A stretch of DNA of 63,829 bases, counting the filler, from Collodictyon triciliatum (lineage: Eukaryota), in the NCBI GenBank assembly GCA_043381765.1. It is 4 parts of 4 records of this genome, joined end to end, with 100 filler letters (N's around TTAATTAATTAA, not from the genome) between each part and the next. Parts side by side here need not be neighbours in the genome. Positions count along the whole stretch, not along the records: positions 49,619 to 63,829 come from JBHJMP010001607.1; 3 more parts are not named here. One strand, given 5' to 3'. The notes beneath the pieces were generated by a model. That model saw only the letters and a program-made list of their open reading frames with translations. It made no database searches and was not told where the DNA came from. Position 1 is the first letter of the stretch, and every line of letters begins with the position of its first letter. Of the stretch, positions 30,201 through 63,829 are shown piece by piece. Both the position numbers and the translations under genes were made by a program.

Positions 30201-32487
30201 TTCTTCTTCAATTTGGTTATGCTCCTCTTTTGTAGTCTCTTCTCCAGCATCAGCATCAGCATCATTAGCATCAGCATCAGCATCATTAGCATCACCATCA
30301 TTAGCATCACCATCATCATCAACATCATCATCGACTTCAAATGGATATGGAGACCAGAAATGCACAGGGGACGGGGAGTACGACAGCAGCGACTTTACAA
30401 AATTTGACGAATCATACACAGCTTCATCCTGAAGAAACAAAATTCGTGACCGTGTCCATGTACATCTTGCTCGCCAGGCTTGTTTCAATGTTTGTAGCAA
30501 CTTCTCTGGTCCTGCAGACACAAGGGCCTTGTCCTTTGGGCACAACGTATCTCCGTTATTTGCCACATACAAATACAATAATCGGTCAAGTCCACCCAGA
30601 AATGCAGGGATGCGCACAAGGCTATTTGCTTTCAAATTTAAATGCACAAGATGCTTCATGTCCTCAAAAAAGTTTGGAATCGAGGAGATTCGATTCTGAG
30701 CCAAATCCAGATGACTAAGCAGGGTCAGGGTATGAATCACAGGTGGAACCTCTGAAAGTCCAATATCAGACGCCAACAACACACAAAGTTTCTTGCAGAG
30801 GGAAAGTGACTCCGGCAACGAACCAAGCGGGTTATGGTTCAAACTCAACTGAGTCAAAAGCCCCATGGCTGGGAATACCCTTTCAAGAACAGGAAGCGAC
30901 GTCACCCCAACGATTTGGTTATCTTCAAGGCGGAGTGTACTCACATCCAAATCCCGCTTCTTTAATACTTTTGCAGACTCTGCAACATACATTATAGACT
31001 CTGGTAATCTAGCCAGGTCTAAAGAACTCAAATCCCAGACAGTTGACTTTGCAACATGCGCTGTCCATACAACAAGATCGGCATGCAATATGTCACTGTT
31101 ATCATGTAAGGTCAAGTGTGTCAGATGAATAAGAGAACGCAATAGTCGATTCGGGATAGACGTGATGCGGTTGTTGTCCAATGTCAAATGACACAAAGGA
31201 AACTCGTGTTGACTGCTTGTATCCTCCTCGGAATTCATCAAAGGCAACGCAATAATCTTATTTTGATGAAGTAATAGCTGGGATAAAGATGGACATGAAG
31301 TTAAAAGCCAGTCAGGAAAATGTGTCAGGCCATTCTTGTGCAAATCTAAAACACGGAGTGAACTGAGCCACATCAAGGTTGCTGGAAACCCTGGGCCGAT
31401 GCTATTGTCCGACCCGTCCAGCTTGTACAAAGATGTCAGATATTGTAGAGTCTCTGGTAGCTGAGAAAGTCCCCTTGCACTCACATCAAGAATCATTTCT
31501 GAGAATATCAACAATTATTTTGTTATAAAAAAAATCAACAATTATTTTGCTGCTGCTATAATTGATAACATGGTTCATATGTATAAAGATTATTTATCGT
31601 TGTACAAAAAAATATTCATTTTTTCCATCTTCCTTCCTTTCTTTATTTTATTTATTATTGCTGATATGTTATTATTACTACTACTACTCTATTTTACAAT
31701 TCACTTGCTTTGTCTTTTTTTGTATATTTCCTCTTTTGTATATTTTTTTTATACAAATGAAAAATACAATAAAAATAAAAGATGGCTTGAGTACCACATG
31801 TTCCAATGTAAGATTACCTGGCGTGCTTACAAAGGCAGACTTTTGTGTAATAAACAAACTCCACACAGCAGCCTCATTATCGGGAATCGGATTCCCATCC
31901 ATCGGAGCAAAGCGCAGCACATTCATATGGAACAGAAAAGATTCAATGCCAGTAAGCAAATTGCGCTGCACATCCAGCGTCTGCAGACGAACCAAAGCAC
32001 TAAGTTCCTGGGGAAGCAGAGAGACACGATTATCAGACATATGGAGCGACTGCAGATTGGATAGGCGGCCGATTTCTGGAGGCAGTGACGTAAGTGCGTT
32101 GTGTGAGAGGGTGATAACTTGAAGACGGTAGAGAAGACCGAGGCCGAGGCCATGAAGAGTTGTGATTCTGTTTGCGTGGAGGAAAAGCCGCTCCATGCGC
32201 GTGAGCCTGGACAACTCACGAGGCAGAGATAGCAGCTGGTTGCTCTGCACATTGAGCTCAACAAGACGCTCGAATCTGCTGAGGATTGCGGCATCGATGG
32301 CCTGCAGTTGATTGTGAGGCAGCCAAAGGATTTCAATCTGCGTCAGCTGCGAAAGGTAGACAGGGAGTTCGTGGAGGCCTTCGCGATCCAGCTTGACTTC
32401 AGTCAGATCCTGCAGATCAGCCCCGCTCAAGTCTGTAAAGCGTGTGCGGCTGCGTCCCGTGAAGCTAAACGATACTCGTCGCGACAT
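27222..32487 (-). CDS. LRR / degenerate Roc GTPase / COR-like / zinc-ribbon / PH-domain protein (Roco-like), about 4 exons
   Basis: LRRs in ORFs 31684-32487 and the first ~340 aa of 27546-31514. Roc-like remnants RSRILFLQ, FQIWEF, LSFWLTELAAATPGARVILV. COR-like FVHQHGLAL and LLPRLAA. CPEC...CCNSH zinc ribbon. PH domain SGYLAKQMG...WSSKFVVL, completed by small exons VDPLNAESSTLGFVLKSRDVTWTFK and APTQSEFDAWWAILQ; stop at 27222. Confidence 0.8.
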
Positions 32488-32608
32488 TCGTTCTGTCTTG
32501 CGAAAGGTATGTGCTTTCTTTATCCCTTTTTCTTTTTCCCTTTCCTGTGCTCCTTTGAATCTTGCTTTGTCCTGGGCAGTTCTTTTGTTTCAGGGGGATG
32601 AAGATTGC

Positions 32609-33003
32609 TTTAGTTTAGTTTAGTTTAGTTTAGTTTAGTTTAGTTTAGTTTAGTTTAGTTGTTGCTGAGTTCTGCTTTTGTTCTACTCTGTTTGGTTTTG
32701 ATCAGGAAAGGGAGTATGATTGCGGTGGTGGTCGCGCGCAGGCTGATATGCTTTCCGAGCAGTCTTGAAAAAATGAGGGCGACGGGGAAGAAGGAAAAGA
32801 AGGAAAAGAAGGAAAAGAAGGAAAAGAAGGAAAAGAAGGAAAAGAAGGAAAAGAAGGAAAAGAAGAAGAAAAAAAAGAAGGAATAAGAAGGAATAAGAAG
32901 GAATAAGAAAGAAGGAATAAGAAAGAAGGAATAAGAAAGAAGGAATAAGAAAGAAGGAATAAGAAAGAAGGAATAAGAAAGAAGGAATAAGAAAGAAGGA
33001 ATA
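32609..33003. repeat. (TTTAG)n and purine-rich tandem repeats (AAGGAAAAG, GAAAGAAGGAATAA) at contig end
   Basis: Arrays at 32609-32659 and ~32788-33003. Confidence 0.9.
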
Positions 33004-33103
33004 NNNNNNNNNNNNNNNNNNNNNNNNNNNNNNNNNNNNNNNNNNNNTTAATTAATTAANNNNNNNNNNNNNNNNNNNNNNNNNNNNNNNNNNNNNNNNN
33101 NNN
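33004..33103. other. Artificial contig spacer N-TTAATTAATTAA-N
   Basis: Linker at 33048-33059. Confidence 0.97.
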
Positions 33104-49518: not shown

Positions 49519-49618
49519 NNNNNNNNNNNNNNNNNNNNNNNNNNNNNNNNNNNNNNNNNNNNTTAATTAATTAANNNNNNNNNNNNNNNNNNNNNNNNNN
49601 NNNNNNNNNNNNNNNNNN
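49519..49618. other. Artificial contig spacer N-TTAATTAATTAA-N, flanked by TTTTTATC and GAAAGA repeats
   Basis: Linker at 49563-49574. Confidence 0.97.
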
Positions 49619-49819
49619 AAAGAAAGAGAAAGAAAGAGAAAGAAAGAGAAAGAAAGAGAAAGAAAGAGAAAGAAAGAGAAAGAAAGAGAAAGAAAGAGAA
49701 AGAAAGAGAAAGAAAGAGAAGAAAGAAAGAGAAAGAAAGAAAGAAAGAGAAAGAAAGAAAGAACTCCATTAACTTTATTAGGAATAGGTAACCATCCGCA
49801 CCCTCTTCAGTTCGCCAAT

Positions 49820-51090
49820 ATGGCAGAGGACACGGAAAACCTAGAGGAATTGCGTCTGATAACGCAAGACAAAGACATTGTCACCCTCAAAAAACGAACT
49901 TCGCTGCATCTTGGGTCACCCTTCAATAGTATAACACTTTCTGCCATGCCATCAGGGGTTTGGAAGCTTGAAGAACTCAACGACTTACAGCTTTGGGGGA
50001 ATCAGATTTCTTGCCTTTCTCCAGATGTATCGAAATTAAGTGACCTGAAAGAGCTTCGCATAGAAAAAAACAAACTTACTTCGCTACCTCCAGAAGTGTC
50101 CTATTGGACAAATCTTGTGCATCTCAGTGTCGATGAAAATCTTTTGTCATGTTTGCCCCTGGAAATATCCCGCTTGATATCGCTCACTGAGTTGCGCATC
50201 AGCAAAAATCAGATTACTGCTATACCACCAGATATATCCACATTAACCTCTCTGAGAAACTTATTCCTTTATGAAAATCAAATTTCTTATCTACCTCCAG
50301 AAGTATCAAGACTGATCAATCTAGAAGGACTTTATGTTTTCGGTAACCCAGTAAGAACTATAAAATCACTTGAATATTCCTAATATTTTGATGTTATCTC
50401 AAAATCCGTTTTTTTTATGGTGATGGCGATAATAATAATGATAATAATACACTTACAGATAGAAGAGCTACCACCACATATTACAGCGCTAACAAACCTG
50501 AAAAAACTCTTTATTGAGAAAAGTGGGAAGATTAACATTAAGCGATCACCAAGTGGAATATCTAACCTCCCATGTTGGAACCATCTGGAAGAGCGTGATC
50601 ATTTAGGCTTAACCATTGCTCGCTCTAATGCTCTGAGAAAGATGCAGCTTTACGACATTGTAAGTGGTAACTAATCTACAACACAAATTTTCGAAATAAG
50701 TTAATAATTTAACAAATAAAGGATGATATCCTGAAGCCAGGATGGGTTCCGAATGAAATATTTCTTCGATTGCAATCATTGGATTTCACTGGAAAGGGTT
50801 TATCTGCCCTACCAGATAACATTTCCCTCTTGATGAACCTGCGATATCTTAGTATCAGCCAGAATAAAGTACAAATGACCACATTAATCTATAATGTCGT
50901 TAAGAAAAATATTATTACCATACTCTCTTTCCTATCAAAACAGAATAACATACCTTGTTTCATCGTAAACATTATTAAAAAAATAGTTCAATCAGCTCCC
51001 CGTATTTGTGCGTCATTTATGCCTTGTAGATTTTCTCGACCTGTCGTACAATCAGGTATACATCACCTTATTCACTACAATCAACGCCAA

Positions 51091-51173
<83 letters not shown>

Positions 51174-54100
51174 NTACTACTACTACTACTACTGTTTTAT
51201 TATCATTATCATTATATGAGCATGATAATAAGCAAATTGCTTTAATATTTTTTATGTTTATTTTACCACTATTCCTAGATATTTCTACTATCTGAGAAAA
51301 CTTCAGACCTGAAGAAAGTATCGAACATCAATCTCAGTCACAATAAGGTACTAGGCAATGTTGTAATGATTTTTCTATTTTTTTAAAAAATAAAAATCTA
51401 TCTCTGATATCAACTGACACTGAAATTTTCTCTTTCGCATTATTTTTTTTAAAAAAAAAAAAGTTTATCCAATTTCCGATCCCTATATTCGCCATGACGA
51501 GGATGGTGAAATTAGATATTTCCAACAACCAGGTTTATTTTTGGAAAATAATGCAACCCTGAGTATTGTATTTTTTTGGATACGGAACAGCACGTCCATT
51601 TTGATGTAATAATATTCTCTCAAAATTAGATATCTTTATTGCCTGAAAAGGCTTCAGCTCTGAAGAATATATCAAACCTCAATCTTAGTCACAATAAGGT
51701 ACTAGGCAATTTTGTCATGATTTTTCTAGTTTTTTTTTTAAAAAAAAAGTATGAGGTATATGTTATATCAAGTGACACTGAAATTTTCTCTTTCGCATTA
51801 TTTTTTTTTAAAAAAAGTTTATCCAATATCCGATCCCTATATTCGCCATGACGAGGATGGTGAAATTAGATATTTCCAACAACCAGGTTTTATATTTTCA
51901 TTATATGATGCTATCATCTTCAGGACGGAGAAAATCATACATTTCTTTATTTTCATGTTAGATATCGACATTTCCGGACAGATTATCAAGTTTAACAAAC
52001 CTAATTCATATCAATATGGGCAATAATAAAGTATCTACATTATATTATTATAATATTTTATTATTATCATCTTTATAATGTATTGTGGCCTTTCTTTGAT
52101 ATTAAAATGCTTGAAGTTTAATCAGGTACCTTCATCTATCTGCAGACTAAGTTTGTTGGCAACTATAAATGTATCAAACAATCAGGTAGATATAAAACGT
52201 TTTAATGGGTATGTCATCGACACACATAAAGTAAAATCAACGCCTATTCATTGTCAAAAATATGAATTTCCTTTCATTTATTACTATTTTTACCTTTCTT
52301 TTTTTAGATTTCTTCTCTACCGGCTAATGTATCCCTACTGAGCAATCTTACATACTTGAATATCACACAAAACAAGGTTGCTTGCTCCTACTTGATCATC
52401 ATTTTAATACAAAACAAAATTAAACAAAGTTCATAGATATCAAGAATTCCAAATTTAAGAGGTCTAGCCCATCTCCGAGAGTTTTACACGTATCAAAATA
52501 CATTTCCAGCCCTCATTCAACAGTTTCTAGATTCTTTGAATCTATCAAAACATGATGATATTGAATTTTCGAGTAAAGAAATCAAAGAGGTGCCAATCGA
52601 AATATCGTTATTGCCTATCAAGCCTAGGAGTGTTTATTTATCTAAAAATGAGGTTCACACTTGTTAATAAATAATATTTTGTAAAAGCTTCTCCATTTTT
52701 CACCAGACATGTTTAATAAACATTTTTTTTAAAAAAAATAATTAGATAACTGAAATCCCCTCATGGTTTGGCGAGTTGACCTGGATTGAAAAACTTGATA
52801 TCAGCCACAATAAGGTCATTTTTTCTATTTAAATGTAATTCCTAAAATTACTTTTTCGTAACTCGAATCATAATTTGTCATCTTTATCATCGAATATTTG
52901 TGATTTTACAAATATTTATGTTTACAATTTTTAGTTAAGTTGAGTAGGTAACCAAATTAAGATTCCAATTTATTTTAACAAGAAAGTGACAAATATTCGA
53001 CTCACGCAAATTCTATTATCTTTCCTTCAAATACCAACATAATTATTTTTTTTAAAAAAAAACAGGTTGTTATGTTGCCTGTGAATATGTCTCTTTTGAC
53101 CAATATGACCTATCTGAATATGAACACAAACAGGGTAAACTCCATTAAAAAATCTATTTTAGATACAAATTAATTAAATACTCCCTAATTGCGACTTTTT
53201 AAGATTTCAAAGCTCCCTGATATGCGAGCTATGAAGAACATGAGGGAATTGAATGTCCGACAAAACGCATTTCCTTATGCTATTCAGCAGTTTTTGGACT
53301 CCGTCTATCTTGCAAACAGCATTGTAAGTTATTCAGGGAAAGGAATCAGAGAGATTCCTCAAGAGATGATGTGGTTACCTATTTCACCAAGCAGCATCGA
53401 CTTTTCAAAAAACGAAGTAAATATGATCATTCTGATTTCCTTGTTATAAGTTGTCTATCACACAATAATGCAAAGTCCATTCAACCGTTCTTTTTTTTTT
53501 TAATACTACATTAATTTTTTTTTTAAAAAAAAAAAGTAAAATTGTATTTTTATTATCAGATATCCAGTATCCCGAGATGGATTTTCGAAATGACATCGAT
53601 TGAAATCATACATATCGGCCATAATAAGGTTCACATGCTTTCCATAGATCTGAACACCAAATTTTCTCCAAAAAAAACTTTCTTGGTGGATATATTTTCT
53701 TGAAAATGCTTCATCACAGCAAAATTTCAAGAAAAAATGTTATCTGTTTTGTGTATCACATAATAAACCTTTTTCATATAGACATCAATTTTAATTTCAC
53801 TACAGATTTCTCATCTACCGGAAGAAATATCTATTTTGTGCAACTTAAAGTGCATAGATCTGAGCCATAATAAGGTAGAAATTTATTTATTTAAAAGCAT
53901 CTAATTAATAATGAAGAAGAACTCATTTAAAATAAAAGCTAAGTCGACTCCCAGCATCCATCCGAGCGCTTGAGTCACTTACAACGTTGAATATTTCAAA
54001 CAATCAGGTACATCTAATCAATAGTAAAGAAACAATATGTTCATATTATTACGTAGAAACATTTCCCAAAATATTCTACAAAAATGGAAACACTTTAGAT

Positions 54101-54229
54101 TCCCATATTGCCGGATGAAATATCTATTTTATCAGACTTGATAAATCTTAATGTCAGTGAAAATAAGGTTGGAAATTGATCAATATAAACTATGTAGATG
54201 GCTCAGTTTTAAATGCGAATGATAAACTT

Positions 54230-54275
<46 letters not shown>

Positions 54276-57200
54276 ACACTTTTTTTTTTTTGTAGTTAAA
54301 TCAATTTTCTGCATCCATAAATACCTTGACACAACTACATATTCTGGATATTTCGCACAACCAAGTTTGTTGTAAAAAAACATTTTAAATTATGTAGTTA
54401 CATGCAGTTTTAACTTTCTTATTATTGATTATTAACAACAACAATAATAATACAGATACCTTCGTTGCCCGAAGATATATCAACCTTAAGAATCTTAAGA
54501 AACTTCAACGCTAGCCATAACAAAGTAAGCAATAGCAAAATACACATAAAATCGTTTTACTAAAATCTTAAATAAAAATATAAAATAATCTATTCATATA
54601 GTTAAAACTTTTTCCTGCATCCACCAGTACGATGACTCTGTTAGAAACTCTCGACATTTCAGAAAATCAAGTTTTTATTCAAATTGAAACACATATAATA
54701 GTCCTGAAGCTGATATTTTTCAAAAAATAGGTCCTTAATTGGTCTCATTACAAAGTCATGCTTGTGTATTCATATCATACAATAAATTCAATTCAAACAG
54801 ATAACATCATTGCCAGAACATGTATCAATATTTGGAAATATGAGGCATTTAAATACTGGTTATAATAAGGTTATATTGTGACCATCAAAATAAAGTGTTG
54901 AATAAATGAGGTTAACCTTAGATATCATATAGCTTAATCATTTGGATCCGAGTATCAGTGGGATGACCTCCTTACAGACTCTCCAAATTTCGCACAATAA
55001 GGTTTTATGTGAATATGAGGAAATCATATACACTTCAATAATTCATGTTTTTTAAATTGCATTCAATTGTTTGATTAGATATCTAAAATTCCCGAGGAAG
55101 TATCATCCTTGACAAATTTATTACATTTTGACTTCAGCAAGAATAAGGTATGTATATAATTAAAATGAAAAATCTGAATGTAAGATATATTCATGTACTG
55201 AATTTCTGATTCAATGTTCAATAAAATTAGTTTCATCATCTACCGATTTCTATTCATAAAATTAAATCAATGGTGGAACTCAACATTTCTGAAAACCAAG
55301 TAATTTTTCTCGTGATTAATGTTTTCTTTAAAGATTGGTCACTTGTTAGATTTTATTTTGGATATATCAAGAGTCTAATGTAGTATAAATAGATTTCTTT
55401 TCTACCAGAGGAAACATCAGTGCTTACGAATCTAACAAAATTAGACATTAGTCATAATAAAGTTATTTTCGATTCATAAAACCTAATGATTACAATAACA
55501 ACAGTAATAGTTATAAGAGACCCTAAAATTTATCTCCATTAAACTCCAGACAAAGACGGATATTTTAAAAAATAATCCACTTAATACAAATAGTTCGGCC
55601 ACTTTCCCATATCCATACACACTATGACACTTATCGAGAGTCTAAATGTGTCAAATAACCAGGTTTATTTCAGTTATAGTATTCTTTTATTGATAAATTT
55701 GTTCTTATTATAAGATTGTATTATAGAACTATTTTCTGCAAACATTAGATTGTTTACATACCTGACTCAATCGTCGGTCTCTTAAATCTCAAAGTATTGG
55801 ACTTGTCCAGTAATAAGGTTATTCCTGTCATATGTATCTTGAATAATCCAAAGGTGTAATCAATTGCCTCAAGCATTTTTCTATCTTGAAATAATGAGAT
55901 TGTTTTGGCTATAAAACTTTATTATAAATGACTTTTTACAATCTTTCATACAGATTGGCACTCTCCCATCATTTCTCGCAAAAGTCGAGACATTGAGAAA
56001 TGGATTATTTATTCAAGATAATCCGATTAAAAACATTCCAGCCAACGTCATTAGAAAAGACTCTGGGGCAGTGTATGATTTTTTAAAAGCTTCTGCAGAG
56101 GGGATAACTAGATGGACAAATGGAAGGCTTTTGCTCCTTGGAGAAGGATTTGCTGGGAAAACTACCCTCATCAAATCGATCATGCAAAAGCATCTATTCT
56201 TCAAAAAAACTACTGACCTAGACAGAGAGAGAACTAATGGCATCGCGCATGTTGATATTGATGAATCTATGATGGGCGGACTCTTTCAGACAAAAATTTC
56301 TATCCGGATTTGGGATTTTGGTGGACAAGAAGACTTTCAAGTGACACATCCTTTTTTTCTTTCATCCGGGGCACTGGTCTTGATTTTATACAGACTTGAT
56401 CAAACTAAGGATAAAAATAACCTCAGAAGATGGATCAAAATGCTCGATGACTTTGCTCCTGGATCTAAAATCATTATAGCTGGAACCCATCATGACAGGC
56501 AAAACCCAGAATGTAAGCGTGAAATGCTTGAACAAATTGCAAGAATAAAAAAAGATAATGAACAAAAAAAGGAAGAGGCCAAGCGCCACATATTCATCAA
56601 CACAGAATTACGTGTGAGTAACAAGACTGGAAAAAGAATTTCGGACCTGAAGAGAGCTATCCATGGAGGAATGATGAGACTTGATAACATAAACAAAGAC
56701 GTACCTAAAACATATGTCAGGCTGAAAGAATATCTAGAATCTAAGGGACAATTAATGAAATACGAAAGCATTCAGGAGACCTATGAATTCGCAGAAAAGC
56801 AATTGAAAATGGATCGTGGCCAATGTGACAGTGCTTTGGAATTCTTGCATGACCTTGGCTCCATAGTTTGGTACTCCTCTTTTAAAAATGTTAAGGACAT
56901 TGTCTTTCTGGATCCCCTCTTCCTCATAAACATCTTTCGGTGTGTTTTTAGTTTCAAAGGCGTTGAAAAAAGCACGGATGGGATTGTCTTGCTTAATCGG
57001 CTGAAAGAAAAAATTAATAAAGAATTGAACGTTGGATTGGACGAGCATGTATTTAATACAATTATCAACATCTTTGATCATTTTGGATTGGGGATTAATT
57101 TCAATAAGGAGTGTATTGCTTTTCCATCCTTAATGGAAGATTGTAAAAATCTTGCAGCATTATGGAATAACGCGCCAGAGTCTAATTGTGTGTCTGAAAT

Positions 57201-60200
57201 ATCGATAAAATTAATAACCCATGGTGAAATCCAACTTTCAGACAAAAGCAACATAATTGTCCAAGCCCTTCGCTTGACCAAAGGTGCGCCATCTGGTATT
57301 CAATTTGAAGACCATTTTTTTAAAGATGTAGCTCTAATTCACTTAAAGGCTCGCTATCTCCAAGAAGCAAGTGATGTCAAACTACTTCCAGGGAATTCTC
57401 TGATTGTATTATGCCGCATCCTTTCTGATAGAATTTTAATTAAAATTCGTAAATATGATGATGATTTCGACGAACGCAATCAATTTGTTCGTATTTTTCA
57501 CATATTAAACTTTTTCGTCAGAGAGATATCAAGCATTCGACAAAACTTCATCAAGAGTTGTAAAATGAGATGTCCGCATTGCCGAAAAAATCGCGTCAAA
57601 GGTTATGTTGTAACCACAATCAGAATGAGTCATACAGATATGAATAAATGCACAGAAGGACACACGCTTGATCCGGAATTTGTGAAACAAGGTCGTGTGT
57701 ATCAAGAGGAAGGTAGATTATATTCTCCAGTTGACATTTTTTTAAAAAAATAATAAGACAAATATATTTTTTTTATAAATTAGATAATACCCCTCATTTA
57801 ATGTGGAAATTGCACATCATTACAATAACATTCATTTTTCCTCTTTATTTTACATGCAATCATAATGGAATATCATTATTAACCACGTCCTATACAAAAA
57901 GGAATCTCTAAGAGATTCAACTCTGCAATAAAAGTAAAGAAGAAGAAAAATCAAACTCCTGAATCTATGTCATACCTAACTTCAATCGAGCAAGAGCTAA
58001 ATCAATGGAAGGATGTATGGATAAATCAACCGGTGGAATTGATCGAGTATATTGGTAAAGGGGCTTACGGCAGAGTTTATAAGACGTACCACAAAGAACA
58101 AGATGCAGTTGTTAAAATTCAAAATATAAAAGGGTGTTGGGAACATTCCATGGGCGAGATAATTGAATCTCTCATACATGAAACAAAGTTCCTGCATGAA
58201 TGTAGCGAGCACGAGAATATTGTAAAGTTATTTGGAGTGTATCGGAAGGATGAAGACTTTTTCATGGTAATGGAGTATGCTGGAATTTCGTTAAAAACAA
58301 AAGTTGAGAGAAAAAAGGAAGTACTTGATATTTCACAAGTACTTTCCTACTCGAAGCAAATTTGCATGGGAATGAATTTTATGCACTCCAGAAATCTGTA
58401 CCATGAGGACTTAAAGGCAGACAACATCATGATAGTAAATGAAAATGTGAAGATAGCAGATTTTGGAATAGTCAGCCGCCGTGAAGCTGAAAAGGTTGGA
58501 TCCCTTCTACCGACTCGATTCGGTGAGGAGAAGCAAGGGGGAACGTCAAATTGGCAGGCCCCCGAAATTCATGAAGTAGTTTGTAAGCCTCATTTCTTAG
58601 ATGGAGCTATTTACGGTGAAGAAGGAAATAATATAGGTCATAGAGGAGAACCAAGCAATGTGTATGCTTTTGGGATGCTGCTATGGTACATGTTTTCTGC
58701 TATTGAGCCATTTAAGAATGAAACACAACCGCAAGGCTTTATAGTGAGAGGTTTGCGTCCTGAAATTCCACCAAATACCCCACTTCATTTTCGGCATCTT
58801 ATAAAGGCCTGCTGGAAACAAAATTACAAACTAAGGCCGAGCTTGAAACAAGTGCAAATTTACATGGATGAGTCTTTTTCAGATCAACGAGAAGTTTGTT
58901 CCAAAAAAATGATTGAAATTTTGCCAATAAGATATTCTCAATATACAGATATGTATCGCAGTGAATTCGTGGAATGGCTGGGTGATATTTCGTATACAAG
59001 GTTAGCAGAGAAGATATCTGATGAGAATTGGGATAAATTTTGTGATATTCAAGAAAAATGGAGCGAAGATAATATGATCCGTATTTACCATATCAATCGG
59101 TCTGATGTATCTGCATTTCTTAACTTATCTGAACAGAGTATAAAAGAATGCAGCTCCAGCTCTAAGAAAAAAAGTATTAAAGAGCTCAGCTACTATCAGA
59201 TCACTGGTCATTTATCATCGATGAGTGATGAGTTATCTAAAAGATTGCTTGAAAAAATGAGAGCTTTGAAACTTAATGGAGATATTATATCTAAACTTGA
59301 CCAACCAGACATATATGCGAGGTTTTCATTTTCTGAAAACGATGTCTCTTTTGCTTCTCAAGTGATCAATGACGAAACAAAATTAAGTGGGGGCGTGGAA
59401 CCCCATCTTTCGTGGGACAGTATAGGATATTCCCAATTCAGAGATATTCTGCAATTTGATGCCAGATATACCCCTTACTGCCATGGAATACAAAATGCAA
59501 CATCATTGTGGCTGGGTTCGATGAATTTATTCCAGCTCCCGGATTCTTTGAGCAATTTGACCAACCTTAGAAGGCTTTATTTGCACTCAAACAAGGTGTG
59601 ATGTTCTAAATATGCAAGTGATGTAATAAAATTTTGATATACATATCTGTAAACAGCTATTGCGTTTAATTATGAAATTTCTACATAGATAACTTCAGTT
59701 CCTGGGCTGTTCCACTCTCTGACAAATTTGATAACGTTGGACTTATCAGACAATATGGTATGGCATCAATAAAATAAATTGTAAAACTTCGTCCTTTCAG
59801 GGAACTCAATGAGTAATAAGCATATCTTCTCAGCTCTGAAATAATGTTAATGATATTAGAAAAAAATAGTTTGTTGAAAAAAAAAGTAAAGCATATTGTA
59901 TCTAATTTTCCAGATATCTATCGTGCCCTCTGAAATTTCTTCCTTGACCGCTCTGTCACGTTTGGATGTATACGAGAATCCGGTTACAATTATTTTCGAT
60001 GGTTGTTGGGAAAATATAGCCAAATTTAACACAATTCTATTGATTGTAGATGCCAGAGCTTCCGGTCCAAATCACATGTTTGAAATGTCTATGTCATTTG
60101 GGCATTGTTGGTAAATCAGGAGAAGTTTGCATAAAAAAAGCGCCGCGTGGTGTCATCGACTTGCCTTGTTGGAAGGAATATCGTTGCCCTGATTTTATGC

Positions 60201-60299
60201 AGATTAGGGAACTGACCCTCTATGAACATGAAGATCAGGTACTCGTACTAATATCTTTTCGATGATTCACAGCTTACTGAATCTTTTAATTATCCATAG
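49820..60299 (+). CDS. Roco-family kinase: LRR array / Roc / COR / zinc ribbon / TKL-like kinase / SAM-like / second LRR block; about 35 exons; stop at 60263-60265 or 60297-60299
   Basis: LRR exons 49820-55818. Roc: GEGFAGKTT, WDFGGQ, GTHHD, VSNK. COR: LEFLHDLGSI, VFLDP. CPHC..CTEGH. A phase-1 splice (57712/57902) joins in frame to the kinase: GKGAYG, VVK, HEDLKADN, DFG, APE, GLRPEIP, CW..RPS. Further LRR exons at 59500-60238. Confidence 0.92.
51091..51193. repeat. (TAC)n microsatellite in an LRR-array intron
   Basis: Tandem array seen directly. Confidence 0.95.
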
Positions 60300-61556
60300 T
60301 AACCATCGGCCGACTGAGTCTGCATCTGCATCTGCGTCTTCTTTGACAGCAAATTGCATACGATGCTCACGTTCTTGAGAGAAACATCCAACCTCCATAA
60401 TATTCTTTCTCTCCTGCTCGCGAGAGCCAACAAGATTGTTTTTTTTTTCGTTTCTCACCTACTCGCGAAAGAGCCAATAAGAGCTCGTTTTTCGCCAGAC
60501 ATTCGAATAAATGAATACTGAAATATCACATATTTTTTTCATCTCTTTAACGAGCCGGCATTGATTTGAAGAATTTAATGAAAGATTAAAAAAAAGCAAC
60601 TAAAGGTGAATAAATTATGCTGTTCGCCTAGCTTGTCTGTTTGGTGATAGGACGTGCTCTTAACATATTAAGTAACAATAATAATAAAGGTGAATGAAAA
60701 AGACGGAGCGAGCTCAAGCCACGGACCCATAGGTAGAAGGATAATTATGAATATAGTGCTCAGTATAAGTTTCTCTGATTCATTCACCCATTTCTTCTTT
60801 TTCTTTTTCCTTTCTCTTCGGTCTCATTCAACCAGTAAATGGATTAACTTTATTACAAAGGTTGTGACGAACTTGGTTTTATCCCTTTCAAGGCACAACA
60901 CTTTTTGTACAACGAAAGTGTACCTATTTATAGCAGTTTATTGCACAGACAACCATCGAATTAAATATGGGTTGACGAAACCAGGAGCTTTGATGAACCC
61001 AAGAAGCAACCTGAATAATATAATATACGATTAGAATATATAACAAGATTAAAAAAGACTTCATAATCTCATTCTATTCCCGTAATCAATTTAAATTTTA
61101 TTTCTAATTTTGTAATATTAATCCAAAAATTCAAAAATTGCAAACAAGCCTTTGCCTTGGCCCAGAAAGAACCCACCCTATAAACCTTCCATCAAACATG
61201 CATTTCAAAAAAGCATTCTATCCACACCTGCGGCGGTAACCATGTTGCTTGGGGCCGATATGTTGACTTTCAGTCGAAATGGCTATACAGCCGTCTTTTC
61301 GAACTCGCAAAATCAGCTCTCAGAGTTATACCTCAAATCACTTGTAAAAATAAATAAAAACTTGATGTGTCTGATTGCCACAATGCGCACATTTCGAGGG
61401 TCTCGGTAGATGCTTAATTTTAACTGAATTGATTTTGTGCAGTTTTTTTTTTTTTTAATATTTTAATTACTTATTAAATTGACTGATTGACTAGAATTTA
61501 TTAAAATTGAAAACTCGGTAGTTTTCTAAAGAAAAAAGTAGACCAAAGACTTTCAG

Positions 61557-63500
61557 ATGAAGAAAAGAAAACGTCTTGAGTCTGAGAATATAAAGTCTGT
61601 AAAACTAGACTGTCGAAATGTGAAAACATCTCTAAAGTCGATTGTAAAGAATGTGGATGACTATGACAAAATCAGCGATACGGTTTTATTGTGTCATAAT
61701 TCGGTTACCGACACTTATCTGTTTGCAAGATGTTACACATTGAAATAACAGCTCCCAACAATCGATGAAAAGTGCTTCTTTTTTTTTGTACGCTTTAAAT
61801 ACTGTCAGAATAGCTTCACGTGATAGAACCGCAAGATTAAAAAAAAAACCAGATATGAGTGATGGCATGATGACTTTTTATCTTAATGATTTTCGATTCC
61901 TTTTATCTTGAGAAGAACGCTTTCCGTTGGTTAGACTGTCTCATCTATTACCGTACTTGGCGAAACAAGTGTTAACAGCTTATCATAATTACATTAATGA
62001 ACATTTTGTAAAGAGGTTACTGCGCTTTATAAATCAAACCGTTTTTTATTCTAAAAATCTTTGTTTTTGAGCCTTAAATCAAAAAGTTCCTAAAATGAGG
62101 ATATGATGGAAGCTATTAAAAGGCAGAGTTACGAAAGTTAAAAAAAAGCCATCTCCAAGAAACTCGAAATACCAGAACAATATAAAGAACGAGCTAAAAT
62201 GCATTTGCATCATATCATTCCCAGCGACATTGAAAATGGTATCGAATATGACATCAAAGTCAATCCAAATAAGCACATTCCGTGTCTGATTTACATGAAT
62301 CGCATTTTTGAGGAAATAGGAACCAAACTGCTTTAACCAATCCCTATAAGAACTACCAATATACCATGTCATATTACTCTAGATACTGCATGTTTGACAG
62401 ATATATCTATTAGTATCAGCTGGAAAGAACATTATTACTGAAGAATATATCAAGATGCAAAGAGACCCTATGGGATAATTTCTTTGAAATGAAGAAGAGA
62501 GCCTTTCACCAAAGAGACTATGATTTTAAATACACAATACAAACAGAAGGCTTGGCGGTTTCATTACTATTTGGAAAGAAGGATATTTCAAATTCAAATT
62601 CAAAATATAATCAAAAACCCCAAGATTATTTTTATATAGATGAACTTTCCGAAGAGCTGTTATCTTTATTAGCGGAAAAAAATAAAATAGTTTGAGTGGA
62701 CGCAGGCAAGTTTAGTTTGGTTTACATGGTGGATGAGATAGGCAGGTAAGAAATTACGTTACACGGCACACCAAAGAAGACATTATACCAAATCTCTTAA
62801 AATCACAAAATACTCTTGCACGAGAAAAAAAAAAGTACAATGCTTCAGGGATATACATGACAACAGGTTTACAAAGTGCTATTTCTTTTGGTCTCAGGAC
62901 TTTTGAAGAGAATCAGCAGTTTGAGACATCAAGAGCATCTTTAATCGATTTAGAGACAGAACTGAGTAAACATAATTCATACGCTGTCGATTATGAAAAA
63001 TTTCCAGAATATGTATCTATGAAATCAAGATGCCAGATAGGATTATCCATATTTTATGGACACGTAACTTCTCGAAAGATGAGATGGATACGGTATGTTG
63101 GTACAAAAAGAAGTGAACAACTGTTTATGGACAGAGTCGATAAGACATTTGGCAAGGATGTTGTACTGGCGTAAGGAGACTGGAGCAGGAAATGTCAGAT
63201 GAAAATATTATATGGCAATAATCGGAAGATGGTTACGAAAAATACTATCCAAACGTTTTGAAACGGTCAGCGTAGATGAATTTAGAACCTCCAAGATGTG
63301 TTGTAGCTGCGAAAAAGAACTGGAATGTATGAAACTGATATGAAATACAAAAAAGTTGTATAGATGTCTCATGTGTAAATAACGAATCGCTCAGAAAGCA
63401 AACAAAGTGTATTCTTGACAAGGGACTTTAACAGCGCTAATTTTTTTTTCCTTTATTCGATTTTACTTTAACAGCGCTAAAAATATACTCAAGAAAGTTC
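61557..63500 (+). pseudogene. Fanzor1 (TnpB/Cas12-like RuvC nuclease) pseudogene, intronless, with several stops and frameshifts
   Basis: Joined fragments: VKTSLKSIVK..ISDTVLLCH..VTDTYLFARCY; LPYLAKQVLTAYHNYINEHFVKRLLRFIN; YDIKVNP..PIRTTNIPCHITLDTACL; FKYTIQTEGLAVSLLF; RuvC-I KIV*VDAG (Asp 62699-62701); VVLA*GDWS; VDEFRTSKMCCSC (Glu 63278-63280); RCLMC; RuvC-III TRDFNSA(K)NI (63418-63486). Confidence 0.9.
63425..63480 (-). mobile_element. 24-nt poly(A)-tailed insertion flanked by a 16-bp target-site duplication
   Basis: ACTTTAACAGCGCTAA at 63425-63440 and at 63465-63480. The insert reads AAAATCGAATAAAGGAAAAAAAAA on the minus strand. Confidence 0.7.
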
Positions 63501-63524
63501 TTTTAATCCTTCAAAATATGCATA

Positions 63525-63670
63525 CACTTCGTCTAAAAAATAGGCTGTTGGGTCTTTCCTGGCAGGCTGCGCCAATACACGACCCTTTGTGAAAAAAGTG
63601 GCGAGACCTTGGATACTTGCGGACCAGGTTTACCAATCTTTCGATTGGTATAATCTTCCAGTATACCAAA
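63525..63670 (+). ncRNA. Candidate Fanzor omega-RNA scaffold / element right end
   Basis: Relatively GC-rich tract immediately 3' of the Fanzor ORF with a perfect hairpin TACCAATC-TTTC-GATTGGTA (~63630-63649). The position matches known TnpB/Fanzor omega-RNAs; boundaries are guessed. Confidence 0.45.
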
Positions 63671-63727
63671 ATAGAATCAAAAGGGTATCAATGAAACCAT
63701 AAAAAAGAGAGAGGGGAGGGTATACTC

Positions 63728-63829
63728 NNNNNNNNNNNNNNNNNNNNNNNNNNNNNNNNNNNNNNNNNNNNNNNNAGAAAAAGAAAAAGAAAAAGAAAAA
63801 GAAAAAGAAAAAGAAAAAGAAAAAGAAAA
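63728..63829. repeat. Assembly gap without linker followed by (GAAAAA)n
   Basis: N run 63728-63775, then a tandem array. Confidence 0.9.

What the first reader, a model, noticed from the sequence alone, without database searches (positions are those of the whole stretch)
61557..63500. Decayed Fanzor1 (eukaryotic RNA-guided nuclease) hidden as ORF fragments
Seen: short fragments in several frames join into one collinear, intronless protein in an otherwise intron-dense genome. It has RuvC-I (V*VDAG), *GDWS, VDEFRTSKMCCSC, a second CxxC and RDFNSAKNI. Known: this motif order, with Gly at the canonical RuvC-II position and the catalytic Glu shifted to a VDE motif just before the zinc finger, characterises Fanzor proteins; the helical N-terminal motifs fit Fanzor1. 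All three putative catalytic residues (D, E, D) are still readable, and two stops are one substitution from the expected codons (TGA for GGA, TAA for TAY). Inference: a family with intact copies may exist elsewhere in this genome, or a consensus could be reconstructed. No transposase is adjacent, so the carrier element is unknown.
Basis: partly seen in the sequence, partly recalled or inferred. Interest (0 to 1): 0.85.

Follow-up and report, generated by a model that had tools for sequence, protein, structure and literature searches.

The report
Dead Fanzor1 nuclease gene relic
This stretch is the badly decayed remnant of a Fanzor1 gene, a known kind of transposon-borne RNA-guided DNA cutter of eukaryotes; as a single dead copy it is an ordinary finding.

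Summary
Window 61557-~63530 (+) is one collinear Fanzor1 coding sequence broken into ten frame segments. A profile of 60 full-length relatives hits five pieces there (i-E 1e-32 to 1.6e-21). The closest intact relative, P0003, aligns over 566 residues, 241 identical, residues 2-585.

Read piece by piece against all PDB chains, 4 of 7 pieces have a solved Fanzor1 (SpuFz1, PpFz1 or GtFz1) as best hit, in collinear order. No Fanzor2 or TnpB chain appears at E<=10. The codons for catalytic D, alternative E and D, and the Gly at RuvC-II, are still readable.

The gene is dead. It has 9 frame changes, one caused by a 40-nt insertion, at least 6 stops at positions where relatives have residues, and one lost zinc-finger Cys. 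No transposase, terminal repeat or second copy lies in the window.

The nearest intact relatives (43% identity) sit in 3.3-kb Tc1/mariner-type elements on giant-virus-like metagenome contigs. Other decayed fragments of the same family exist in public data; one shares two of this copy's lesions. No intact close copy was found.

It is a new member of a known kind, of low interest.

The parts
61557..61748 (+). Segment 1 (frame 0): start codon ATG 61557, basic N-terminus MKKRKR (NLS-like, inferred), first helices; TAA at 61746
   Evidence: Aligned to P0003 from residue 2; part of the A1 profile hit 61572-62591. No PDB hit on its own.
61792..62061 (+). Segment 2 (frame 1): helical REC-like region; TGA at 61909 where P0003 has Arg
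   Evidence: Best PDB hit is GtFz1 506-566, E 0.0055; P0003 and P0002 alignments.
62061..62432 (+). Segment 3 (frame 0): REC/WED region; a 17-codon stretch without counterpart holding two stops (62091, 62139); TAA at 62334 where relatives have Gln
   Evidence: PDB hits: PpFz1 740-793 E 5.6e-4, GtFz1 E 1.3e-3, SpuFz1 E 0.096; P0002 alignment.
62435..62740 (+). Segment 4 (frame 2): WED strands (YTIQTEGLAVSLLF) and RuvC-I; TGA 62693 in place of Gly; catalytic Asp GAC 62699-62701; DAG instead of the family's DPG
   Evidence: PpFz1 811-912; invariant D372 of A1 maps here; P0034 also has VDAG.
62742..62820 (+). Segments 5-6 (frame 0, then frame 2 from 62801): KLRYTAHQRR...NHKILL
   Evidence: P0034 reads through both frame changes, so they are private to this copy.
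62821..63201 (+). Segment 7 (frame 1): ~33-residue insertion shared with P0113, helical region, TAA 63172 in place of Tyr, Gly GGA 63175-63177 of GDWS (canonical RuvC-II position)
   Evidence: SpuFz1 794-903 E 7.8e-4, PpFz1 and GtFz1 weaker; P0113 alignment; invariant G496.
63203..63379 (+). Segment 8 (frame 2): alternative catalytic Glu GAA 63278-63280, TS-xx-CxxC, TGA 63341, third Cys 63374-63376; TAA 63380 and loss of the fourth Cys at the next frame change
   Evidence: PpFz1 1139-1185; sub-threshold PF07282, E 0.0053.
63379..63440 (+). Segment 9 (frame 1): SESKQSVFLTRDFNSA, RuvC-III Asp GAC 63424-63426
   Evidence: A DNA-level profile of the relatives' 3' region hits 63366-63440, E 1.5e-6.
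63441..63480 (+). 40-nt insertion: 24 nt plus a second copy of the 16-nt repeat ACTTTAACAGCGCTAA; shifts the frame by +1
   Evidence: Repeat family D8. Shared with the locus behind P0001, absent from P0056.
63466..63530 (+). Segment 10 (frame 2): FNSAKNILKKVLLILQNMHTL, last recognisable coding part
   Evidence: Aligned to P0056 residues 114-133; A1 profile reaches position 587 of 632.
63531..63670 (+). Structured, G+C-richer block just downstream of the coding relic: candidate remnant of the guide-RNA (omega RNA) scaffold, weakly supported
   Evidence: MFE -46.9 kcal/mol, z -3.79, 0 of 200 shuffles as stable. Background: 3 of 240 window-strands at z<=-3.0. G+C is 0.426 for 63531-63728 against 0.34 for the coding relic 61557-63440. 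No Rfam, tRNA or Pfam match.

Best explanation
Window 61557-~63530 (+) is a pseudogene: the relic of a Fanzor1 gene, the eukaryotic branch of the TnpB/Cas12 superfamily of RNA-guided DNA endonucleases.

The ancestral state is inferred from the family, not shown here. It would have been a protein of about 630-650 residues with an N-terminal basic patch for nuclear import, a helical REC half, a WED domain and a split RuvC domain. The RuvC catalytic triad is Asp (RuvC-I), a relocated Glu just before the zinc finger, and Asp (RuvC-III). The protein bound a guide RNA transcribed from the 3' end of its own element and cut matching DNA next to a short motif. It rode on a cut-and-paste DNA transposon; in the nearest intact relatives that is a Tc1/mariner type.

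The copy in this window can make no such protein. It has 9 frame changes, at least 6 premature stops and one zinc ligand lost. It has no recognisable transposon ends or transposase left. It lies between host genes, about 1.3 kb downstream of the last recognisable exon of an LRR-Roc-COR-kinase gene. It belongs to a family of which several other decayed pieces exist in public data.
For: Homology
- A1 profile against the six-frame window: five collinear + strand hits at 61572-63517, i-E 1e-32 to 1.6e-21, covering profile positions 6-587 of 632.
- tblastn of P0003 (634 aa, intact): residues 2-585 at 61563-63438.
- Frameshift-aware alignment to P0003: 566 aligned, 241 identical.
- The representative search with the frame-2 read found 302 proteins at E<=1e-3 and 54 at E<=1e-10.

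Family
- 4 of 7 window pieces have a Fanzor1 chain as best PDB hit, at collinear positions. The combined frame-2 read hits PpFz1 at 1.7e-6.
- A1 against PDB: SpuFz1 1.3e-107, PpFz1 7.9e-104, GtFz1 8.3e-83; the next hit is at 1.2e-5.
- AF2 model of P0003 has pLDDT 90.3. All 7 top Foldseek hits are Fanzor1, TMq 0.68-0.79; ApmFz2 scores 0.24 and ISDra2 TnpB 0.21.
- The A1 invariants D372, G496, E530, S534 and D581 are all readable in the window.
- The motif D-X(125,275)-[TS][TS]-X-X-C4-X(5,50)-RD and the conserved G and E are the published hallmarks (PMC3627910, sections 5-6 read; PMC10530073, passages read).

Decay is real, not sequencing error
- The two neighbouring host ORFs run 612 and 572 codons without a break.
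- Six stops are base substitutions at conserved residues.
- The independent contig behind P0001 shares the frame change at ~63203 and the 40-nt insertion.
Against: - Pfam gives only a sub-threshold hit on the window's pieces: PF07282, 17.3 bits against a cut-off of 26.3.
- Two word-based searches for long relatives found nothing.
- The N-terminal piece (61542-61748) and the C-terminal piece (63419-63592) have no Fanzor hit of their own in the PDB.
- No transposon ends, target duplication or transposase were found. Membership in a mobile element is therefore inferred from relatives only.
- The guide-RNA part is not shown. The structured block 63531-63670 was chosen after looking at G+C content. 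It has no detectable similarity to the relatives' 3' regions. The conserved hairpin of the relatives is not kept here (z -0.90).
Confidence: 0.93

Rival explanations
1. The relic came in as part of an integrated piece of giant-virus DNA (an endogenous viral fragment) and not by transposition of a cellular transposon. It is still a dead Fanzor1, but of viral origin.
For: - The nearest intact relatives (L003, L006, L008, L009 and others) lie on contigs of up to 254 kb. These have dense intronless ORFs (coverage 0.80-0.89) and encode an mRNA capping enzyme, ribonucleotide reductase, a MutS-like protein, a DEAD helicase and ankyrin proteins.
- The nearest Atlas clusters are 92-100% viral, mostly Nucleocytoviricota.
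- Bao & Jurka argue that viruses spread Fanzor elements (PMC3627910, sections 7 and 16 read).
Against: - Identity to those relatives is only 43%.
- Nothing viral flanks the relic. Upstream lie exons of an LRR-Roc-COR-kinase gene with short gaps between them.
- Several differently decayed fragments of the same family exist (P0001, P0034, P0060, P0104, P0056, P0113). That pattern fits a multi-copy transposon family.
- Only about 200 nt of right flank can be read before an assembly gap.
Confidence: 0.1
2. The gene is alive. The apparent breaks are assembly or sequencing errors, short introns or programmed frameshifts.
For: - The assembly is a draft with N gaps.
- Several frame changes lie at or near homopolymer runs, for example T9 at 61779-61787 and A10 at 62825-62834.
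Against: - At least six stops replace residues conserved in relatives.
- There is a 40-nt insertion inside RuvC-III, and a zinc ligand is lost.
- Adjacent host ORFs of 612 and 572 codons are unbroken.
- P0001's separate contig shares two of the lesions.
- Nearly invariant family positions are substituted: D319E, P373A, E399Y.
Confidence: 0.02
3. It is a Fanzor2, a prokaryotic TnpB/IS605-type OrfB, or a Cas12f-like gene (for instance contamination), and not Fanzor1.
For: The C-terminal Zn-ribbon piece weakly matches PF07282, which all these groups share.
Against: - No Fanzor2, TnpB or Cas12f chain appears at E<=10 for any window piece. Cas12i2 at E 0.37 is the only other superfamily hit.
- The N-terminal 350 residues match Fanzor1 chains only.
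- The profile and the fold strongly prefer Fanzor1.
- The surrounding genes are eukaryotic.
Confidence: 0.01

Closest known systems
Solved Fanzor1 nucleases: SpuFz1 (PDB 8GKH), PpFz1 (9CF0), GtFz1 (9CER)
   Same: Same domain order over the whole length: helical N-terminal half, WED, RuvC-I Asp, Gly at the RuvC-II position, relocated Glu before a CxxC...CxxC zinc finger, RuvC-III Arg-Asp. The window's pieces hit these chains collinearly. The family profile hits them at 1e-107 to 8e-83.
   Different: The window copy is a pseudogene. Its family carries a ~33-residue insertion after the LRYT..QRR helix, shared with P0113. It has DAG in place of DPG at RuvC-I, shared with P0034. Pairwise similarity to the solved proteins is low: piecewise scores are 16-31 bits.
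Mariner-type Fanzor1 elements of giant viruses and their hosts (PGv-1, HMa-1, PUl-1; Bao & Jurka 2013, PMC3627910 section 7)
   Same: The nearest intact relatives found here (L001-L008) have this architecture. The element is 3.3 kb with ~33-39-bp terminal inverted repeats. A DDE_3/HTH transposase (PF13358, E 1.3e-13) lies on the opposite strand. The Fanzor1 ORF ends ~50 nt before the right end. The contigs are giant-virus-like.
   Different: In the window neither the transposase (best tblastn E 0.32; no HMM hit) nor the repeat motif (0 matches with up to 3 mismatches) nor any inverted repeat between the flanks is detectable. Whether L001-L008 are the published elements themselves was not tested.
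Fanzor2 (ApmFz2, PDB 9B0L) and TnpB (ISDra2, PDB 8H1J)
   Same: Same superfamily and the same RuvC/zinc-finger C-terminal core. Fanzor2 and a TnpB subset share the Gly/Pro-for-Glu rearrangement (PMC10530073, passages read).
   Different: They lack the long helical N-terminal half matched here. The fold match of the closest intact relative is only TMq 0.21-0.24. No sequence hit appears from any window piece at E<=10.

Membership tests
Fanzor1 | C-terminal motif D-X(125,275)-[TS]-[TS]-X-X-[C4 zinc finger]-X(5,50)-RD (Bao & Jurka 2013) | tested here: met
   Met in read-through. Asp is at 62699, Thr-Ser at 63287-63292 (about 196 codons on), CxxC at 63299-63310, third Cys at 63374, and Arg-Asp at 63421-63426. 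The fourth Cys is lost at the 63380 lesion; the related fragment P0001 keeps it.
Fanzor1 | Gly at the canonical RuvC-II Glu position and a conserved alternative Glu downstream (G500/E536 of SPu-1-1p) | tested here: met
   GGA at 63175-63177 and GAA at 63278-63280 map to the invariant G496 and E530 of alignment A1. The trait is shared with Fanzor2 and some TnpBs (PMC10530073), so it is necessary but not sufficient.
Fanzor1 | Whole-length similarity, including the N-terminal helical half, to Fanzor1 and not to Fanzor2 or TnpB | tested here: met
   Searches give N-terminal pieces hitting GtFz1, PpFz1 and SpuFz1. One search gives the profile over positions 7-598 against SpuFz1, E 1.3e-107. One search gives TM 0.77-0.82 against SpuFz1 and 0.21-0.24 against Fanzor2 and TnpB. 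No phylogenetic tree with named reference sequences was built.
Fanzor1 | Open reading frame able to give an active nuclease | tested here: not met
   There are 9 frame changes, at least 6 stops at aligned positions, and a 40-nt insertion in RuvC-III. It is a member by descent only.
Fanzor1 | Guide (omega/f) RNA encoded at the 3' end of the ORF and beyond | tested here: inconclusive
   Block 63531-63670 folds at z -3.79. It was picked post hoc and has no similarity to the relatives' 3' regions. The relatives' conserved hairpin (z -3.0 and -3.9) is decayed here (z -0.90). No RNA data are available.
Fanzor1 | Carried by a transposon with defined ends and target-site duplication | tested here: inconclusive
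   No inverted repeat links the flanks. There is no transposase and no TIR motif of the relatives. The right flank is readable only to 63727, and no paralogues were available to define ends.
Fanzor1 | N-terminal nuclear localisation signal (about 60% of Fanzors, PMC10530073) | not testable with these tools
   MKKRKR at 61557-61574 looks like a basic NLS and aligns with MKRKK of P0003. No NLS predictor was run.
Fanzor2 / IS607-type TnpB | Compact protein with an HTH_OrfB_IS605-type N-terminus, clustering with IS607 TnpB | tested here: not met
   No PF12323 or PF01385 hit on the window pieces. PF01385 matched 1 of 60 relatives. No Fanzor2 or TnpB chain was hit.

The most novel reading that the evidence does not exclude
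The relic marks an undescribed Fanzor1 subfamily, distinguished by a ~33-residue insertion after RuvC-I and DAG for DPG. Under this reading the subfamily still has at least one intact, active copy elsewhere in this unidentified eukaryote. The structured 140-nt block at 63531-63670 would then be what is left of its guide-RNA scaffold. The genome would in that case offer a new natural RNA-guided nuclease together with its RNA.
Probability: 0.12. Interest if true: 0.45.

Novelty: new member of a known kind. Interest (0 to 1): 0.2.

Why it matters
Fanzors are the only known eukaryotic RNA-guided DNA endonucleases and are being developed as compact genome editors, so each new lineage is of some practical interest. 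This copy is dead and adds no new mechanism. Its value is as a marker: Fanzor1 elements once moved in this genome, and their nearest living relatives ride Tc1/mariner-type transposons in giant-virus-like genomes. That gives a probe for finding intact copies in the full assembly.

Tried and rejected
- Whole-genome search for paralogues: not possible, because no genome is held.
- Word-based homologue searches. Piece 62737-63261 with 'longer' found none. The frame-2 read with 'longer' found none. With 'shorter' it found only P0001 and P0104.
- Pfam on the seven pieces: only sub-threshold PF07282.
- Rfam on the whole window at gathering thresholds: 0 matches. On 63300-63728 at E<=10: six matches, all far below threshold. 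No tRNA was found. No Pfam family matched six short ORFs of both strands in 63489-63702.
- Folding 63440-63727 as one RNA: z -0.46.
- C-terminal tail. By eye 'RPFVKK...QSFDW' (63577-63660) resembled P0003's 'RPSVFRR...QSVDF'. The frameshift-aware alignment scored 24, and 61 of 200 shuffled tails scored at least as high. Rejected.
- An intron at 62835-62897 (GT...AG, 63 nt) as an explanation for the extra sequence after EKKK. Rejected, because P0113 carries a homologous in-frame insertion.
- Terminal repeats. The repeat finder on 60000-63829 gave only low-complexity or intragenic pairs. blastn of the right flank against the left flank gave nothing better than E 0.049, and that match was a T-run.
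- The relatives' TIR core: 0 matches with up to 3 mismatches, against 0.6 expected by chance.
- The relatives' transposase: best tblastn E 0.32, and that hit lies elsewhere in the window; the HMM search returned no rows.
- The sliding fold scan stopped for time at about 61600. Only 62900-63589 was added afterwards, so 61640-62900 was not scanned.
- Earlier findings of this scan hold nothing for this genome or this sequence.
Full report
**1. The observation**

- V*VDAG has TGA at 62693 and Asp GAC at 62699-62701.
- *GDWS has TAA at 63172 and GGA at 63175.
- VDEFRTSKMCCSC has Glu GAA at 63278.
- YRCLMCK lies in the same frame after a TGA at 63341.
- LTRDFNSA has Arg-Asp at 63421-63426.
- A 16-nt repeat (63425-63440 and 63465-63480) brackets 24 inserted bases. 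'RDFNSA' and 'NSAKNI' are therefore 40 nt apart and in different frames.

**2. Is it more than chance, and what family?**

Pfam on the seven pieces gave only a sub-threshold PF07282 match: E 0.0053, 17.3 bits against a cut-off of 26.3.

I then searched the pieces one by one against all PDB chain sequences at E<=10.
- 63203-63343 hit only PpFz1, E 1.3e-3.
- 62737-63261 hit only SpuFz1 (7.8e-4), PpFz1 (0.015) and GtFz1 (0.095).
- 61744-62070 hit only GtFz1, E 0.0055.
- 62142-62441 hit PpFz1 (5.6e-4), GtFz1 (1.3e-3) and SpuFz1 (0.096). Cas12i2 (0.37) and a cytochrome b (1.2) followed.
- 62414-62749 alone gave one unrelated hit at E 0.98. Read in one frame together with 63203-63343, it aligned to PpFz1 811-912 and 1139-1185, for a total E of 1.7e-6.
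- The N-terminal piece gave only weak unrelated hits, best E 0.096. The C-terminal piece gave none.

So 4 of 7 pieces have a Fanzor1 chain as best hit, and the matched positions in the chains rise in step with the window coordinates. No Fanzor2, TnpB or Cas12f chain appears.

**3. Relatives**

No whole genome is held.

An exhaustive HMMER search of 1.84 billion representatives with the frame-2 read 62414-63382 found 302 proteins at E<=1e-3, 54 at E<=1e-10 and 1 at E<=1e-30. Of the 150 listed, 84 are 560-780 residues long.

I aligned the first 60 of those as A1. Its invariant columns are T318, D372, G496, E530, S534, D581, N583 and N587 in P0003 numbering. These include the RuvC-I Asp, the Gly of GDWS, the relocated Glu and the RuvC-III Asp.
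- The A1 profile hits SpuFz1 at 1.3e-107 over profile positions 7-598, PpFz1 at 7.9e-104 and GtFz1 at 8.3e-83. The next hits are LaTranC at 1.2e-5 and weaker Cas12m/TnpB-like chains, over the last ~65 positions only. There were 8 distinct sequences at E<=1.
- 44 of the 60 members match PF07282.
- The AlphaFold2 model of P0003 has pLDDT 90.3 and pTM 0.88. Its seven best Foldseek matches are all Fanzor1: SpuFz four times, PpFz twice and GtFz once, TMq 0.68-0.79. After them come Cas12o1 (0.24), ApmFz2 (0.24) and ISDra2 TnpB (0.21).

**4. Anatomy of the relic**

The A1 profile against the six-frame translation of the whole window gives five + strand hits between 61572 and 63517: 99.1, 44.0, 88.3, 85.4 and 62.1 bits, with i-E from 1e-32 to 1.6e-21. 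They cover profile positions 6-587 of 632. Nothing else in the window scores above 1.0 bit, so this is the only copy here.

A frameshift-aware alignment to P0003 gives 566 aligned residues, 241 identical, 8 frame changes and 9 stops.

Closer but partial relatives refine the path.
- P0113 carries the same ~33-residue in-frame insertion after EKKK. That stretch (62835-62935) is therefore a family feature, not junk or an intron.
- The final path is: frame 0 (61557-61748), frame 1 (61792-62061), frame 0 (62061-62432), frame 2 (62435-62740), frame 0 (62742-62801), frame 2 (62801-62820), frame 1 (62821-63201), frame 2 (63203-63379), frame 1 (63379-63440), the 40-nt insertion, then frame 2 (63466-~63530).
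- That makes nine frame changes.

Stops where relatives have a residue lie at 61746, 61909, 62334, 62693 (Gly), 63172 (Tyr) and 63341. Two more lie in a 17-codon stretch without counterpart. A TAA sits at the 63380 frame change, where the fourth zinc-finger Cys is lost.

Nearly invariant positions are also substituted: D319E, P373A and E399Y. The codons for the catalytic D, E and D, and for the Gly, are intact.

**5. Real decay or bad sequence?**

Several points show the decay is real.
- The two host ORFs just upstream run 612 and 572 codons unbroken: Roc-COR and protein kinase.
- The stops are substitutions at conserved residues.
- P0001 is a 136-residue prediction from a separate 582-nt NCBI contig. 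It is 88-95% identical over three tblastn segments: 90.5% over 95 aa, 88% over 25 and 95% over 20.
- P0001 reads continuously through the out-of-frame/in-frame junction at ~63203 and through the 40-nt insertion. Its locus therefore shares those two lesions.
- P0001 lacks the lesions at 63341 and 63380, and it keeps CKEC.

So the gene was already dead when the two copies separated. Whether P0001's contig is an allele, a paralogue or an orthologue cannot be told here.

Other fragments carry different lesions: P0104 (45 of 58 identical), P0060 (35 of 48), P0034 (60 of 83), P0002 (155 of 268), P0056 (74 of 131) and P0113 (108 of 199). Word-based searches found no full-length close relative, and among short proteins only P0001 and P0104.

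**6. Carrier element and relatives' context**

The window itself:
- It holds eukaryotic host genes: ankyrin, cupin, ribosomal protein L18e, LRR proteins, kelch, SPRY and LRR-Roc-COR-kinase.
- Further LRR exons of the kinase gene reach about 60.1-60.3 kb, so the relic is intergenic.
- No transposase domain, inverted repeat between the flanks or repeated flank was found.
- The right flank ends at an N gap at 63728.

Relatives on metagenome contigs:
- A scan with P0003 gave ten loci.
- Pairwise blastn shows a 3.3-kb element with ~33-39-bp terminal inverted repeats.
- A 346-residue DDE_3 plus HTH transposase lies on the opposite strand: PF13358, E 1.3e-13.
- The Fanzor ORF ends about 50 nt before the right end.
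- This is the Mariner-type Fanzor1 architecture described by Bao & Jurka (PMC3627910, section 7).
- The flanks are dense intronless ORFs that include an mRNA capping enzyme, ribonucleotide reductase, a MutS-like protein and a DEAD helicase.
- The nearest Atlas clusters are labelled 92-100% viral, mostly Nucleocytoviricota.

Neither that transposase (best E 0.32; the HMM returned no rows) nor the repeat core (0 matches) is detectable in the window.

**7. Guide RNA**

In the relatives:
- The last ~300 nt show a conserved predicted structure. 20 of 72 pairs have a change on both sides in at least one of six sequences.
- This includes a hairpin over the zinc-finger/RuvC-III coding part: L003 z -3.0, L008 z -3.9.

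In the window:
- A DNA profile of that region matches the window only at 63366-63440, E 1.5e-6.
- The homologous hairpin is not kept there (z -0.90).
- Just downstream of the coding relic, 63531-63670 folds unusually well: -46.9 kcal/mol, z -3.79, 0 of 200 shuffles as stable.
- In a local background of 240 window-strands, 3 reached z<=-3.0.
- My own 40-shuffle z values for this block ranged from -2.9 to -4.9.

The block was chosen after seeing its G+C content and has no known family. I therefore rate it only as a candidate scaffold remnant at the position where Fanzor guide RNAs are encoded (PMC10530073, discussion passage read).

**8. How it works**

Now it does not work at all.

The ancestral mechanism is inferred from the family. 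A guide RNA from the element's 3' end loads the nuclease. The D-E-D RuvC site, with its relocated Glu, cuts DNA matching the guide next to a short motif. This activity is shown experimentally for other Fanzors (PMC10432273 and PMC10530073, passages read).

That TnpB-type nucleases help their transposon persist by cutting the emptied donor site is my recollection of the TnpB literature.

**9. Comparison, novelty and verdict**

The relic meets the sequence hallmarks of Fanzor1 and fails only those that require a living gene or a recognisable element.

Fanzor1 relics, including ones tied to Tc1/mariner elements, are known (PMC3627910). Earlier notes of this scan report them in another genome (not checked here).

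It is a new, dead member of a known kind. The host is an unidentified eukaryote, so I cannot say whether its lineage is new for Fanzor1. Interest 0.2.

**What I saw of each paper**
- PMC3627910: outline, abstract and sections 5, 6, 7 and 16.
- PMC10530073: 12 of 24 matched passages.
- PMC10432273: 3 matched passages.
- All other titles: search listing only.

Noticed in passing
window 27546-31514 (-), especially 28000-30000: A 1322-codon open frame with LRR repeats holds a ~2-kb block of 73% G+C in a window that is otherwise 30-38% G+C. All six frames are open there, and the translation is rich in Ala, Arg, Gly and Pro. It could be an odd compositional island, a low-complexity linker or an assembly chimera.
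   Followed up: no
window 49619-60300 (+) and 27546-32589 (-): There are at least two LRR-Roc-COR-kinase (ROCO-type) genes or gene parts. The one at 49.6-60.3 kb is split into several ORF blocks, with short gaps between LRR exons at 59.6-60.1 kb, which fits an intron-containing host gene.
   Followed up: partly
L003 6688-6740; L008 5370-5420; alignment A4 columns 10-59: In the intact giant-virus-like relatives, a hairpin overlaps the coding sequence of the second zinc-finger half and RuvC-III. It is very stable (z -3.0 and -3.9) and keeps pairing through changes on both sides between L003 and L008. The last ~40 nt of the ORF are also almost invariant at the DNA level across 51% protein identity. 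This is probably part of these elements' guide RNA.
   Followed up: partly
L003 3631-6952 and the matching stretches of L001, L002, L005, L006, L008: A 3.3-kb Tc1/mariner-type element carries a DDE_3 transposase and an intact Fanzor1. It has ~33-39-bp terminal repeats, is found at 74-80% DNA identity on several large metagenome contigs with giant-virus-like gene content, and is inserted at different places.
   Followed up: partly
window 63425-63480: A 24-nt T-rich insert is flanked by a perfect 16-nt direct repeat inside the RuvC-III coding part. It is shared with the locus behind P0001. It looks like a small insertion with a duplication of the target, or a replication slip.
   Followed up: partly
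window 63728-63829 and other N runs: An assembly gap of 48 N is followed by an (AGAAA)n microsatellite at the window's end. ORF translations also show X runs, and therefore N gaps, in ORFs spanning 32655-33055 and at the start of ORF 49571-50383, plus a single X in ORF 50713-51219. The draft quality limits any statement about the relic's right flank.
   Followed up: no
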